A stretch of 64,000 bases of DNA from Escherichia coli. GTDB taxonomy: Bacteria > Pseudomonadota > Gammaproteobacteria > Enterobacterales > Enterobacteriaceae. Below, in pieces: positions 1-3,000 of the stretch. Within the stretch, counting starts at the first letter, position 1; each line of letters starts with the position of its first letter. The position numbers are program-made. The stretch is taken from NCBI RefSeq assembly GCF_024298765.1, contig NZ_CP101210.1; one strand, given 5' to 3'.

Positions 1-3000
1 CTCAATCATACAGCTGGTGTAGAGGCTTCGGATGCTGATGCCACTATCACTCTGTCTCGTGATGTATTGAACAAAATTGTACTGAAAGAAGAGACGCTGA
101 AAGAAGCCACGGCCAAAGGAGATGTCAAAATTACTGGCAATGCGGAAAAACTCAACGAGCTGTTAGGTTATATGGATAATTTTGAATTTTGGTTCAATAT
201 AGTGACACCATAAATTTACTGCATACCGGGCAGGTATCCTGCCCTTTTTTGGTTAAAAAATGGCTGAACGAAGAAAAACGCATCACTCATGGAAAACCCG
301 CCGCGATATGGTTATTCGCGGCATGACGATTAGTTTGCCATGGTTTGCTTTTATCAATGTCAGTTTTGCATTGATAATTTTGCTGCGCCGTGTTCTGTTT
401 AATGACCTTACTCCACCCTGGTTAAATGAAAAAAGCCTTATACATTCTATTGATATATCTGCAACGGGTATTCTGCTAATTTGCAGTGGTTTACTACTCA
501 TCCCTCGGCAAAAAACATTACCTATCCAGGTGCTATTAGTTGCCCTGAGCCTGCTATGGTCATGGTGTAGTTATCACTTTATTGCGTACTGGACGCTGCA
601 GTTTGCTTATCCACTATGTGTATTATTAATGCTTAGTGGCGTTGTCGCACTTTATTTCCATACCCCATCATTGCTCGCATTTGTCATTCCCTTATGGTTC
701 ACCACTCCAATAGCGAGTCTTATGCTTAATCAACAGATCAATATTCATTTTGCTGTTGTATGGTGTATTTTTTCACTGGCGCTATATGGTGGGCGACTCA
801 TTTTGTTACGTTGGTTTGAAGAAGCATGGGTACAAAACAGTTATAACAACCAGTTAATTAATCGCCTTGATGCATTAGCACATCGTGATCCTTTAACTGG
901 GATAGCAAACCGACGTGCAATGAACAGTATCTTACACGACGCGATAGATAACGGCGGGTCATTTGCTCTTATTATGCTGGATGTCGATTTTTTTAAACGT
1001 TACAACGACACTTACGGGCATCCTGCTGGGGATCGTTGTCTAATACAAGTTGCCGACGCTCTACAGCGTTCAACTCGCCAGTCGGAGGATGTTGTTGTCC
1101 GTTATGGTGGCGAAGAGTTTGCCATCATACTTTTTAATGCAACATTGCCGGAAGCAGAGACGGTAGCAGCCAGAGTGAAGCAAGAACTTAAACTGGCAGC
1201 TATCCCACATCAGGCATCTGCTGTTAATGCATTCGTTACGGTTAGTCAGGGGATTACCTGTTCTGCTCCCGCAAAAACGGCTGAACAAATTATTTCAGAT
1301 GCCGACGCTGCGTTATACCGGGCGAAAGAAAGTGGGCGAAATCGATGGGCTTTATAAGCATTAGGGGACTGGACAGATTACGTCTCTCCTCGCTTAACAA
1401 GGGCTGACGGAGGGTAATAATTGTCTATAGCTATCTTCTTAGCGATGTCTTTCTGGTATCACATTGGATCGGTGCAATTATTTTTCCTTTAATACCCATT
1501 ATGTTAAGAAATTCAGAAACAGCTGTAATCTCATTGGTTTTTTCATTCGTCTTGATCTTCCAAGGAATCTGACTGTGCATTATTGAGAACACACTAATAA
1601 CGTGAATCGCTCCCTTGCGACGACTCTTGTCATAAGAGTACCGGAGCGTTTTTCCATCAATTGCAATGACGTCTTTATCATCTGAAGAATGGCAGTCAAG
1701 CATCCAGTTAATAAAGCACTCATGAAATTTTGCAGGACTGATACAGGATACAACTCTGGCAATGGTATCGTGAACAGGAATACCATTATCAAAATCACCA
1801 TATTGCTTCAAAAAATCGAGATGTGTTTCCCCAAAATCCTCTATATCTTCCCAGCCTTCTGCACCCGAAATAACGGCACAAATAGTCAACAGTAGAATAT
1901 CCGATAATTTATGTTCCACTTTCCAGGCTTGTCTGTAATCGGGGATAATAGAAATATGTTCCATCAATTTTTTAAGTTCCATTTTGTTCTCCTTAATTAT
2001 GTAAGGAGTATTTGATCATGTATAAGCAATAAAAAACAGCTTTAGATAATGAGGAATATCTCAATTTTTAAACATAAAATGCGAATTATTTAGTACAAAA
2101 AAGCAGCGTTACGTGATCTTTCCATGGAAAAGAGAGTAATACACTGATTTTTAACGCAGATTGCCAGTGCTACCAACACTGACAATCTGCTCACCACAAG
2201 CAACTAACAGAGGTAGTTAATCATGGCTGAACACGATATTACGCCAGAAGTCGCCATTTCCAAAACACAGCGCCGCTATAAAGTCGGCTATGTCAGAGCC
2301 CGCCACATAAACAGCAAAACCTACATGACCACGTACTACTCACGACACCCCAGCCTGAACCTTAAGGGCGACTGGCTGAAAGAGGCCGGATTTGATACCG
2401 GACGGGGTGTCACGGTGAAGATTTCGGAGGGGTGCCTGACCATCATCGCTGACAGTGACGAGGTGCAGGAACTGCGGGAGGAACTTTATCAGGTTAAACA
2501 GGTGGTTAAGGGGATGCGGAACGGGATGTTTAGTGTGCTGAACGAGAATTAAATAATAAAAAAGCCGGGGAGATTTAAAATCTTCCCGGCTTTCTTTATC
2601 ATCTAAAAAGGTAATAATCCTCTAATAGGAGAAAATTTTGTAATATCAATACCTTGTAATTTAAAGTAATTAAAAGCATCTTCTATATTGGAAAACGCAC
2701 TAATTTCTTCAGTTGCATAATCTTCGAACACTTCCATTTTATTTTCTGGTATTTTGAAAAAATAGGTATTGTATTTTTCATCCTGTTTTTTAATGGCATA
2801 TTGGAAAAAATAACTTTCACCATTTATTTCCTTTATCTCATCAAAACCTCTAACCTTACCATTCTCTATAGCAACAATTAATTTTTCAATAGACAAATCA
2901 ACCATCTATATCTATCCTCACCATTGTCCCATCAGAACGTTTAATATTTATATGAGGCAAAGAACCATGCCCTGTGCCTTTATGGTCATCATGACCATAT

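What the first reader, a model, noticed from the sequence alone, without database searches (positions are those of the whole stretch)
2101..2552. SymE-like type I toxin next to the Rhs immunity gene, with putative LexA box and 5' hairpin
The 109-aa protein aligns with E. coli SymE over the AbrB-like core. Upstream there is a CTG-N10-CAG element (2144-2159) with an AT-rich spacer resembling a LexA operator, and a 14-bp near-perfect inverted repeat (GCAGATTGCCAGTG / CACTGACAATCTGC, 2156-2190) in the 5' UTR. By analogy with symER, an antisense sRNA covering the start codon may be encoded on the opposite strand. Convergent placement against the Rhs immunity gene with a shared terminator suggests it arrived with the island.
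Basis: partly seen in the sequence, partly recalled or inferred. Interest (0 to 1): 0.55.

Follow-up and report, generated by a model that had tools for sequence, protein, structure and literature searches.

The report
SymE-like gene with antisense RNA

Summary
The window is an E. coli RhsE-type locus. ORF 2223-2552 is a SymE-family protein: Pfam PF08845 E=2.5e-20, 42% identical to K-12 SymE, and already named as such in RefSeq.

The 14-bp inverted repeat is real. It is the 3' stem-loop of a SymR-like antisense RNA (2228..2153, minus strand), not an mRNA hairpin.
- Rfam symR matches full length at E=8.5e-7, below its gathering score.
- 13 of 27 pairs covary across 15 variants.
- Wobble pairs fit only the minus strand (74 G-U and 8 mismatches, against 3 and 79).
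- A conserved -35/-10 lies inside the ORF.

The LexA box is not supported. Its heterology index is 18.0 (known sites are at most 12.8; K-12 symE is 7.9). It ranks 103rd in the window, and most homologues lack it.

Homologues show the native context: integrase, primase-helicase, cHTH, SymE, then a convergent immunity gene and Rhs tip. Here an ISAs1 end (2127) has removed the cHTH gene and its promoter, leaving 12 nt.

The Rhs association has been published since 2007, so the finding itself is ordinary.

The by-product is more interesting. In related loci, direct repeats of the DPxGL-coding rhs core end flank the element. It may be a vehicle for Rhs tip replacement.

The parts
1431..2127 (-). 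Remnant of an ISAs1-family (H-repeat) element. It comprises a truncated transposase ORF (1431-1982) and the IS end ...GATCTTTCCATGG, which finishes at 2127.
   Evidence: tblastn gives 87% identity to residues 1-170 of an intact 378-aa ISAs1 transposase. RefSeq annotates it as a frameshifted, incomplete ISAs1 transposase. Window 2095-2130 matches thousands of E. coli genomes. The same IS terminus abuts different points of the symE leader in L070 and in L055/59/62/74.
2128..2139 (+). Last codons and TAA stop (2137-2139) of a deleted upstream cHTH (Cro/cI-type) gene.
   Evidence: Window 'aaaagagagTAAtac' aligns with Salmonella L030 'gaagagagagTAAtac', where the TAA (4917-4919) ends a 129-aa HTH_3/HTH_31 gene lying 81 nt upstream of SymE.
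2144..2159 (.). Judged fortuitous.
   Evidence: The heterology index is 18.0 against 12.8 or less for known sites and 7.9 for K-12 symE; it ranks 103rd in the window. Homologues carry CTG..CGG, TTG..CGA or TTG..N8..CAG instead. The CAG forms the base of the hairpin stem.
2153..2228 (-). SymR-like cis-antisense RNA of about 76 nt with two stem-loops. It is fully complementary to the symE-like leader, the Shine-Dalgarno sequence and the first 6 nt of the ORF.
   Evidence: Rfam symR RF01809 matches full length (1-77) at 48.3 bits, E=8.5e-7, below its gathering score of 61. The fold has z=-5.5. The alignment of 15 variants shows 98% paired cells, 13 pairs with compensatory changes, and 0 of 500 shuffles as good. 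The strand test favours the minus strand.
2156..2190 (-).
   Evidence: Ten of its 14 pairs carry changes on both sides in homologues, and 99% of cells are paired. On the minus strand the stem has 19 G-U pairs and 2 mismatches. The same pairs on the plus strand give 2 G-U pairs and 19 mismatches.
2236..2263 (-). Predicted promoter of the antisense RNA, inside symE-like codons 5-14. The -35 is TTGGAA (2263-2258), followed by a 16-nt spacer and the -10 TAATAT (2241-2236). The start lies 7 nt further on, at 2228.
   Evidence: Read directly from the sequence. All 28 variants keep TTGGAA or TTGAAA, and either TAATAT or TAGAAT, even where the encoded residues change (Ile to Ser). K-12 symR has TAGAAT with the same geometry. 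Kawano 2007 showed that the symR promoter lies inside symE.
2223..2552 (+). symE-like ORF of 109 aa, with a Shine-Dalgarno GAGG at 2210-2213.
   Evidence: Pfam PF08845 E=2.5e-20. 42% identity to K-12 SymE. RefSeq WP_000807556.1 is named 'SymE family type I addiction module toxin'. dN/dS is 0.23-0.45 against five homologues.
2294..2422 (-). Segment homologous to Salmonella IsrA, antisense to symE-like codons 24-67.
   Evidence: Rfam isrA RF01385 scores 118.8 bits against a gathering score of 51, full length. The model hits the antisense of every SymE-like ORF tested. IsrA is cis-antisense to STM0294.1n and is inversely expressed with it (PMC2330248).
2189..2598 (+). Conserved 'symE block': the distal part of the leader, the ORF and the terminator. 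Its borders are sharp in every comparison.
   Evidence: blastn of the window against L073, L050, L047, L046, L033 and L003 always begins at 2189 and ends at 2596-2599. Rhs homology resumes at about 3250 (H27).
2561..2593 (.). Bidirectional intrinsic terminator shared by symE-like and the convergent immunity gene. It belongs to the conserved symE block.
   Evidence: A 15-pair stem with 7 G-C pairs. The tail is TTTCTTTATC on the plus strand and TTTTTTATTATTT on the minus strand.
2603..3221 (-). Variable cassette holding a putative immunity ORF (2603-2905) and the Rhs toxin tip ORF (2898-3221).
   Evidence: Assigned by position. Neither ORF matches an NCBIfam family. This region is not homologous between loci that share both the symE block and the Rhs core.
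3184..7560 (-). Rhs core gene. It is frameshifted at a G7 run (3306-3312) just after DPIGLAG, so the tip is out of frame.
   Evidence: ORF list. Three-frame translation and alignment with L053, which has G6 at this point and stays in frame.

Best explanation
[quoted passage not shown] It survives as the distal remnant of a mobile element that accompanies Rhs toxin tips.

Shown by computation:
- The plus strand encodes a 109-aa SymE-family protein under purifying selection.
- The minus strand carries the hallmarks of a roughly 76-nt SymR-like RNA (2228 to about 2153). It has a conserved -35/-10 inside the ORF and two stem-loops. Covariation and G-U asymmetry show that the fold is selected on the minus-strand transcript.
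- In intact relatives the gene is the second gene of a cHTH-symE operon. That operon sits next to a divergent primase-helicase and a XerC-type integrase, and it is convergent on the immunity gene and tip of an Rhs toxin.
- In this window an ISAs1 end at 2127 replaces everything upstream of the last 12 nt of the cHTH gene.

Inferred by analogy with K-12 symER (Kawano 2007):
- The antisense RNA pairs with the leader, the Shine-Dalgarno sequence and the AUG of the symE-like mRNA, and blocks its translation.
- If the protein is made in quantity, it binds nucleic acid through its AbrB/MazE-like domain and arrests growth. K-12 SymE condenses the nucleoid.
- Because the cHTH gene and its promoter are gone, sense transcription here is probably weak, and the antisense RNA is the only remaining brake.

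The locus is not under LexA control.
For: Family membership:
- Pfam SymE_toxin E=2.5e-20; 42% identity to K-12 SymE; RefSeq name; dN/dS 0.23-0.45.

Antisense RNA:
- Rfam symR matches full length in the right place and orientation, E=8.5e-7. The same match appears in L030 and L073.
- The fold has z=-5.5.
- Thirteen of 27 pairs are compensatory, 98% of cells are paired, and covariation is 0.419 against 0.155 in shuffles, 0 of 500 as good.
- The minus strand has 74 G-U pairs and 8 mismatches; the plus strand has 3 and 79.
- The -35 TTGGAA and -10 TAATAT/TAGAAT are kept in all 28 variants.
- The 5' end lies 6 nt inside the ORF, as for K-12 symR.

Antisense transcription in relatives:
- IsrA and STM0294.1n are inversely expressed.
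- Ssr1 lies next to an Rhs gene.

Context:
- Integrase, primase-helicase, cHTH, SymE, then immunity, Rhs, DcrB and VgrG in Erwinia and Salmonella. The same is seen in E. coli-like contigs and in 52 complete E. coli genomes.
- The stop codon of the cHTH gene aligns with window 2137-2139. The IS end is identified.

Against LexA control.
Against: There are no expression data for this strain.

The Rfam symR score (48.3) is below the gathering score (61), and the NCBIfam SymE equivalog score (50.9) is far below its cut-off (132). The locus is therefore a paralogue, and its function is extrapolated across 58% sequence divergence.

No convincing sigma-70 promoter for the sense strand was found between the IS end and the ORF, so the protein may never be made.

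The consensus structure was predicted on the minus-sense alignment, which biases the strand test somewhat. The sequences are related, so shuffle controls overstate significance.

Many homologues elsewhere are fragments, which shows that the gene is often allowed to decay.

The AbrB/MazE fold could not be confirmed from a monomer model.
Confidence: 0.72

Rival explanations
1. One reading: an SOS-inducible symER-like module whose promoter is repressed by LexA at 2144-2159, with the hairpin acting in the mRNA 5' UTR.
For: CTG-N10-CAG is present, with the most AT-rich spacer of the 21 such patterns in the window. K-12 symE has a true LexA box just upstream of the symR-complementary leader. A second upstream variant group (L056/L063/L073) also reads CTG-N10-CAG.
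Against: The heterology index is 18.0, against 12.8 or less for 18 known sites and 7.9 for K-12 symE. It ranks 103rd in the window, and random sequence gives 72 +/- 8 equally good sites. Most of the 28 variants lose one or both half-sites. The nearest relative (Salmonella L030) has CGG, with a compensating change in the other hairpin arm. In intact loci the site lies 5 nt after a stop codon, inside an operon. No LexA box is found at the operon promoters of intact elements. Hairpin mismatches are G-U only on the minus strand.
Confidence: 0.06
2. An inert relic. The ORF and the antisense features are intact only because the ISAs1-associated deletion is recent. The gene has no promoter, makes no protein, and has no function in this strain.
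For: The cHTH gene and its promoter are deleted. No promoter-like site was found upstream on the plus strand. The exact configuration occurs in only 71-73 of 5,426 genomes, all essentially identical, which suggests a recent clone. Truncated and stop-containing copies are common elsewhere. The adjacent Rhs gene is itself frameshifted.
Against: Orphan but intact 105-109-aa copies without a cHTH gene persist at two Rhs loci in many E. coli and Shigella lineages. dN/dS is 0.23-0.45. STM0294.1n mRNA is detectable in Salmonella.
Confidence: 0.2
3. Not a toxin. The SymE-like protein is a DNA-binding accessory or regulatory factor of the integrase/primase element, for example an architectural or directionality factor working with the cI-like cHTH. 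The antisense RNA simply tunes its level.
For: K-12 SymE is now regarded as a non-specific DNA-binding, nucleoid-associated protein with no detectable RNase activity (PMC11894785; RefSeq name). The gene always sits in the element's regulatory region, beside a Cro/cI-type HTH and divergent from primase and integrase.
Against: Overexpressed K-12 SymE is growth-inhibitory. Kawano 2007 argued from gene neighbourhoods that cHTH-SymE pairs resemble toxin-antitoxin operons. Tight antisense control is typical of toxic products.
Confidence: 0.15
4. The hairpin acts on the plus strand, as a terminator or attenuator between the cHTH gene and symE-like.
For: In intact loci it lies in the 81-nt spacer after the cHTH stop codon.
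Against: No T-run follows it on the plus strand. Read on the plus strand, the same pairs give 19 mismatches and 2 G-U; on the minus strand they give 19 G-U and 2 mismatches.
Confidence: 0.04

Closest known systems
E. coli K-12 symE/symR (b4347/b4625), a type I toxin-antitoxin pair (Kawano et al. 2007, PMC1891008)
   Same: Both have a SymE_toxin domain protein of similar size (109 against 113 aa). Both have an antisense RNA of about 77 nt with two stem-loops, starting 6 nt inside the ORF from a promoter embedded in the first codons, and complementary to the leader, the Shine-Dalgarno sequence and the AUG.
   Different: The proteins share only 42% identity, and the NCBIfam equivalog score is 50.9 against a cut-off of 132. 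The Rfam symR score is below the gathering threshold. There is no credible LexA box. The genomic context is an Rhs tip/immunity cassette rather than the hsd-mcr region. The native form has an upstream cHTH gene as well as the antisense RNA.
Salmonella Typhimurium STM0294.1n and the IsrA sRNA in SPI-6 (Padalon-Brauch et al. 2008, PMC2330248; Rfam RF01385)
   Same: The Rfam isrA model matches the antisense of this ORF above its gathering score (118.8 against 51). The Salmonella gene also lies beside Rhs genes. Sense and antisense RNAs there are inversely expressed.
   Different: IsrA is reported as 423 nt, and its ends cannot be mapped onto this window. The paper did not recognise STM0294.1n as SymE-like. 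Expression here is untested.
cHTH-SymE operons with a neighbouring primase-helicase and RHS or haemagglutinin genes (Kawano et al. 2007, Fig. 7A and text)
   Same: This is the neighbourhood class found here in intact relatives (Erwinia, Salmonella, E. coli).
   Different: Kawano et al. treated the cHTH and the sRNA as alternative regulators that displaced each other. Here, cHTH-linked loci carry the SymR-like promoter and covarying structure as well. In the window itself the cHTH gene has been deleted.
Shigella flexneri Ssr1 (PMC4782007; Rfam RF02627)
   Same: Ssr1 is a transcript mapped next to an Rhs gene. The part of its model that aligns well here is the antisense of the symE-like ORF.
   Different: The score is 112 bits against a gathering score of 820, so this is not the same RNA. 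Only the symE-antisense portion is shared.

Membership tests
SymE family (Pfam PF08845 SymE_toxin) | Significant match to the family HMM over the AbrB-like core | tested here: met
   E=2.5e-20, 72.7 bits, residues 16-75 against model positions 1-53 of 54. All 120 listed homologues carry PF08845.
SymE proper (NCBIfam NF010128 equivalog, 'endoribonuclease SymE') | Whole-protein score at or above the curated cut-off of 132 bits | tested here: not met
   50.9 bits, E=1.2e-13. The protein is a paralogue, not the orthologue of b4347.
SymE family / AbrB-MazE superfamily | Swapped-hairpin AbrB/MazE-like fold | tested here: inconclusive
   The AlphaFold2 monomer has mean pLDDT 70. Foldseek against the PDB gives no hit at E<=0.001; MazE (1mvf_D, 2mru) and AbrB (1yfb) appear only at E>1. 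The fold forms in dimers. The PDB sequence search found nothing.
symER type I toxin-antitoxin system | Rfam symR (RF01809) match at or above the gathering score | tested here: not met
   48.3 bits against 61. The match is nonetheless full length and correctly placed, with E=8.5e-7.
symER type I toxin-antitoxin system | A cis-antisense RNA covering the ribosome-binding site and start codon, with a promoter inside the ORF and a conserved two-hairpin structure | tested here: met
   Covariation, strand asymmetry and promoter conservation. This is computational only; no transcript data are available.
symER type I toxin-antitoxin system | LexA operator at the symE promoter and SOS induction | tested here: not met
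   Heterology index 18.0, rank 103 in the window, not conserved, and not located at a promoter in intact loci. Induction itself cannot be tested here.
symER type I toxin-antitoxin system | Growth inhibition on overexpression, and degradation by Lon | not testable with these tools
   Requires experiments.
isrA sRNA (Rfam RF01385) | Covariance-model score at or above the gathering score of 51 | tested here: met
   118.8 bits, model positions 1-129, at 2422..2294 on the minus strand. Whether an IsrA-like transcript is made here, or binds Hfq, cannot be tested.
Ssr1 sRNA (Rfam RF02627) | Covariance-model score at or above the gathering score of 820 | tested here: not met
   112.5 bits.
cHTH-SymE two-gene module (Kawano 2007) | A Cro/cI-type HTH gene immediately upstream, in an operon with symE | tested here: not met
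   Only its last 12 nt remain (2128-2139), and an ISAs1 end abuts them. The feature is met in relatives L027-L032, L049, L050, L052, L053, L073 and L076.
Rhs-associated integrase/primase-helicase element (described here from related loci) | A XerC-type integrase and a DnaG-type primase-helicase beside cHTH-SymE, with the unit flanked by direct repeats of the DPxGL-coding rhs core end | tested here: not met
   The 64-kb window holds no integrase or primase-helicase of this kind. Only the tip, immunity gene and symE end of the unit remain. The feature is met in L053 and L076.

The most novel reading that the evidence does not exclude
The symE-like gene marks one end of a previously undescribed integrative element of roughly 6.5-7.5 kb. 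Its order is: Rhs tip, immunity gene, symE/SymR-like RNA, cHTH, primase-helicase, XerC-type integrase.

The element would insert at the DPxGL-coding end of rhs core genes. Insertion would fuse a new toxin tip to the resident core and push the old tip downstream as an 'orphan'. This would be the missing vehicle for Rhs 'C-terminal displacement'. The cHTH plus SymE/SymR module would serve as its regulatory or addiction module.

On this reading, the window shows an ISAs1-truncated remnant of the last such insertion.
Probability: 0.45. Interest if true: 0.7.

Novelty: new member of a known kind. Interest (0 to 1): 0.35.

Why it matters
The locus itself adds little. The protein is already named a SymE-family toxin in RefSeq, and the link between SymE genes and RHS genes was drawn in 2007.

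Three points have some value.
- The Rhs-associated SymE subfamily carries a SymR-like antisense RNA that standard Rfam thresholds miss. Covariation and strand asymmetry support it well here.
- This RNA coexists with a cHTH regulator in intact loci. These systems therefore combine type I and type II style control, rather than one having replaced the other.
- The Salmonella sRNA family isrA, and part of Shigella Ssr1, turn out to be antisense to SymE-like genes, which gives them a likely cis target.

The larger prize is the by-product. If confirmed, an integrase-bearing element flanked by rhs core-end repeats would give a testable mechanism for how Rhs toxin tips are exchanged. That question has been open since at least 2009.

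Tried and rejected
- **LexA operator: rejected.** This rests on a heterology index built from 18 published sites, on conservation across 28 upstream variants, and on the absence of any box at the operon promoters of intact elements.
- **Sense-strand promoter: none found.** The consensus scan found no site between 2000 and 2222 on the plus strand. Hand inspection gave only weak candidates, such as GTGATC-18-TAATAC. The source of sense transcription remains open.
- **Fold confirmation: inconclusive.** The AlphaFold2 monomer has pLDDT 70, and Foldseek against the PDB gives no significant hit. phmmer against PDB sequences found nothing.
- **NCBIfam on the tip and immunity ORFs: no family**.
- **Weak Rfam hits: treated as chance.** These are the trpB motif at 2553-2653 (E=0.43), which is the terminator hairpin, and snoR27 at 11332-11424 (E=0.62).
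- **Mapping IsrA's published 423-nt ends onto the window: not possible** without the LT2 sequence. The observation that 2575 to 2153 spans 423 nt is numerology only.
- **Literature searches for the integrase/primase/Rhs element** found no description in the held library. This is not proof of novelty.
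Full report
**Where the window comes from**

Window 1400-3300 is 100% identical to 71 complete E. coli chromosomes. In strain 104 the gene order is narZHWI, yddE, nhoA, yddH, pptA, a sulfatase, a GGDEF gene, an ISAs1 pseudogene, a 'SymE family type I addiction module toxin' (WP_000807556.1), two hypothetical proteins, an RHS core protein, a DcrB-like protein, VgrG, and further on ansP. This is the RhsE-type locus.

**The observation**

- the 109-aa ORF at 2223-2552;
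- CTGATTTTTAACGCAG at 2144-2159;
- the inverted repeat at 2156-2169 and 2177-2190, with one mismatch;
- a strong hairpin at 2561-2593 between the convergent ORFs, with T-runs on both strands.

**The protein**

- Pfam SymE_toxin matches at E=2.5e-20.
- BLASTP against K-12 SymE gives 42% identity over 72 residues.
- The NCBIfam equivalog for K-12 SymE scores only 50.9 bits against a cut-off of 132, so this is a family member but not the orthologue.
- All 120 listed relatives of the 372 found in Enterobacterales carry the same Pfam domain.
- dN/dS against five homologues is 0.23-0.45, which indicates a protein under purifying selection.
- A monomer AlphaFold model (pLDDT 70) has beta strands followed by a long C-terminal helix. 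It gave no significant PDB match, and MazE and AbrB appear only among non-significant hits. This is expected for a fold that forms in dimers.
- K-12 SymE inhibits growth when overexpressed. It is now considered a non-specific DNA-binding, nucleoid-condensing protein rather than an RNase (RefSeq name).

**The antisense RNA**

Rfam's symR model matches 2228..2153 on the minus strand over its full length (48.3 bits, E=8.5e-7, gathering score 61). The predicted 5' end is 6 nt inside the ORF, exactly as for annotated K-12 symR. The 79-nt minus-strand RNA folds into two stem-loops at -35.3 kcal/mol, z=-5.5.

To test the structure I collected related loci from genomes, from contigs that encode homologous proteins, and from a metagenome pattern scan anchored downstream of the hairpin. 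This gave 28 distinct upstream variants.

An alignment of 15 of them, including K-12 symR, gave these results:
- The consensus has two helices, and 13 of 27 pairs show compensatory changes.
- 98% of cells are paired against 85% in shuffles. The covariation score is 0.419 against 0.155. None of 500 shuffles does as well, and sliding the partners collapses the signal.
- The non-Watson-Crick cells are almost all G-U on the minus-strand RNA (74 G-U, 8 mismatches). The same positions on the plus strand give 3 G-U and 79 mismatches.

The structure is therefore selected on the antisense transcript. The '5' UTR hairpin' is its 3' stem-loop.

A promoter for this RNA lies inside the ORF: -35 TTGGAA (2263-2258), a 16-nt spacer, -10 TAATAT (2241-2236), and then 7 nt to position 2228. 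Every variant keeps TTGGAA or TTGAAA, and either TAATAT or TAGAAT (the K-12 hexamer), even where this changes the encoded residue. This explains the near-invariance of the first 45 nt of the ORF across genera.

**Other antisense RNA families**

- Rfam isrA matches 2422..2294 on the minus strand well above threshold (118.8 against 51).
- The same model hits the antisense of every SymE-like ORF I tested.
- In Salmonella, IsrA is cis-antisense to STM0294.1n and is inversely expressed with it. That paper gave the gene no functional annotation.
- Shigella Ssr1 maps beside an Rhs gene. It shares only the symE-antisense portion with this window (112 bits against 820).
- Together these give experimental precedent for antisense transcription across such genes.

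**The LexA box**

CTG-N10-CAG occurs 21 times in the window against 15.6 expected. I built a heterology index from 18 LexA sites listed in PMC3009722.
- The 2142-2161 site scores 18.0. The known sites score 12.8 or less when each is left out in turn, and the K-12 symE box scores 7.9.
- The site ranks 103rd in the window. Random 64-kb sequences contain 72 +/- 8 sites as good.
- Among homologues, the closest upstream relative (Salmonella L030) reads CTG..CGG, with the matching T-to-C change in the other hairpin arm. Others read TTG..CGA or have the wrong spacing. Only the window type and one other group keep the pattern.
- The CAG is simply a stem base that can be A or G.
- No LexA-like site exists at the divergent promoters of intact elements either.

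I conclude that the box is fortuitous.

**What the gene was part of**

In Erwinia pyrifoliae and Salmonella the order is integrase, a primase-helicase of about 930-990 aa, and a 130-aa Cro/cI-type HTH. SymE (109 aa) follows, convergent on an immunity gene, an Rhs gene, DcrB and VgrG.

The window's 'gagagTAAtac' aligns with the stop codon of that HTH gene. Everything to the left of 2127 is an ISAs1 end that matches thousands of genomes. The same IS terminus abuts different points of the leader in other contigs. The window contains no integrase, primase or cHTH of this kind. The symE-like gene is therefore the orphaned second gene of a cHTH-symE operon, without its promoter.

Kawano et al. (2007) already described cHTH-SymE operons, a neighbouring primase-helicase, and RHS and haemagglutinin neighbourhoods. 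They also predicted sRNA control for family members that lack a transcription factor. Later papers noted SymE genes beside T6SS and Rhs effectors in Erwinia and Pantoea. What is new here is modest: the cHTH-linked loci also carry the SymR-like promoter and the covarying structure.

**Did it arrive with the island?**

The conserved symE block has sharp limits (2189 to 2596-2599) in every comparison. Rhs homology resumes at about 3250, leaving a variable tip-and-immunity cassette between them.

A 90%-identical block sits at the far end of a different Rhs locus, on the ybgA side, against a different immunity gene. In a census of about 70 loci, SymE-like copies almost always lie 0.6-1.2 kb from an Rhs core end on the opposite strand. 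Arrays alternate Rhs core-end fragments with SymE fragments.

**By-product: a candidate vehicle for Rhs tip replacement**

- In contig L053, and in E. coli QA-1986 630 (L076), each unit of tip, immunity gene, SymE, cHTH, primase and xerC is followed by a conserved element end.
- That end reads '...RAVAC*KV.P.PDRPD' when translated, and it abuts a second copy of the DPIGL...DPLGL-coding sequence.
- The second copy starts exactly at DPIGL and leads into a different, displaced tip.
- Tandem units in Erwinia end at the tip/core junction.
- The intact unit is present in 52 of 5,426 complete E. coli genomes, and parts of it are present in 218.
- This looks like an integrative element that swaps Rhs tips.
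- Jackson et al. (2009) postulated an episomal circle for tip displacement. [quoted passage not shown]
- Steele et al. (2017) noted Rhs-linked integrase-like genes in bee-gut bacteria.
- I found no description of this element in the held library.
- It is not part of the window beyond its truncated end, so it is reported as a lead.

**Verdict**

This is a real SymE-family gene with a well-supported, unannotated SymR-like antisense RNA. It has no credible LexA control, and it is the ISAs1-truncated end of an Rhs-associated mobile unit. As a finding it is ordinary: a new member of a known kind. The related element deserves follow-up.

Noticed in passing
window 3306-3312 (C7 on the plus strand, G7 in the rhs sense), within Rhs 3184-7560(-); tip ORF 2898-3221(-): The Rhs gene is frameshifted in a homopolymer run directly after DPIGLAG. 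With one G fewer, as in L053, the frame continues through GGINLYQYAPNPLSWIDPLGL into the 107-aa tip ORF. The 100%-identical RefSeq genomes annotate the tip as a separate hypothetical protein. This could be a dead toxin or a slippage-controlled one.
   Followed up: partly
L053 3781-3960 and 11341-11520; L076 nt 8169, 14831 and 21463: Units of tip, immunity gene, SymE, cHTH, primase-helicase and XerC-type integrase are flanked by direct repeats of the roughly 80-nt DPIGL..DPLGL-coding end of the rhs core. The displaced copies begin exactly at DPIGL, after an identical element end. Two tandem units sit at the RhsC locus of E. coli QA-1986 630. This is a candidate vehicle for Rhs tip displacement.
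   Followed up: partly
window 2115-2127; L070, L055, L059, L062 and L074: The same ISAs1 terminus (GATCTTTCC[A/C]TGG) abuts the symE leader at different points. It lies after the cHTH stop codon in the window, inside the left hairpin arm in L070, and in the loop in L055/59/62/74. This suggests repeated IS-mediated deletions or a preferred target.
   Followed up: no
L017, L025, L006, L011, L014, L021: Arrays of up to seven SymE-like copies or fragments, all in one orientation, alternate with short Rhs core-end fragments. Orphan tip/immunity cassettes therefore seem to be bounded by an rhs core end on one side and a symE piece on the other.
   Followed up: partly
window 2510-2593; hits H28-H33: An 80-nt piece comprising the symE-like 3' end and the terminator is present at about 85% identity. 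It is unannotated in O157:H7 and other E. coli that lack the rest of the gene. It is probably the scar of a lost copy.
   Followed up: no
window 2294-2422(-); L041 6099-6227 and 2551-2667; L030, L073, L039: The Rfam family isrA ('Hfq binding RNA') corresponds to the antisense of codons 24-67 or so of SymE-like genes, and it hits every copy tested. The original paper listed the overlapped gene STM0294.1n as having no clear function.
   Followed up: partly
L027 125-207, 233-315, 7388-7470 and 7496-7578: Pairs of 84-bp repeats (79% identity) lie just beyond the integrase gene of each Erwinia pyrifoliae unit. They could be recombinase arm-type sites.
   Followed up: no
L044 (Xenorhabdus doucetiae) 5001-5333 and 6471-6974: A SymE-like gene lies close to a CdiI-family immunity gene and another integrase/primase pair, beside conjugative transfer genes. 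The module is therefore not restricted to Rhs loci.
   Followed up: no
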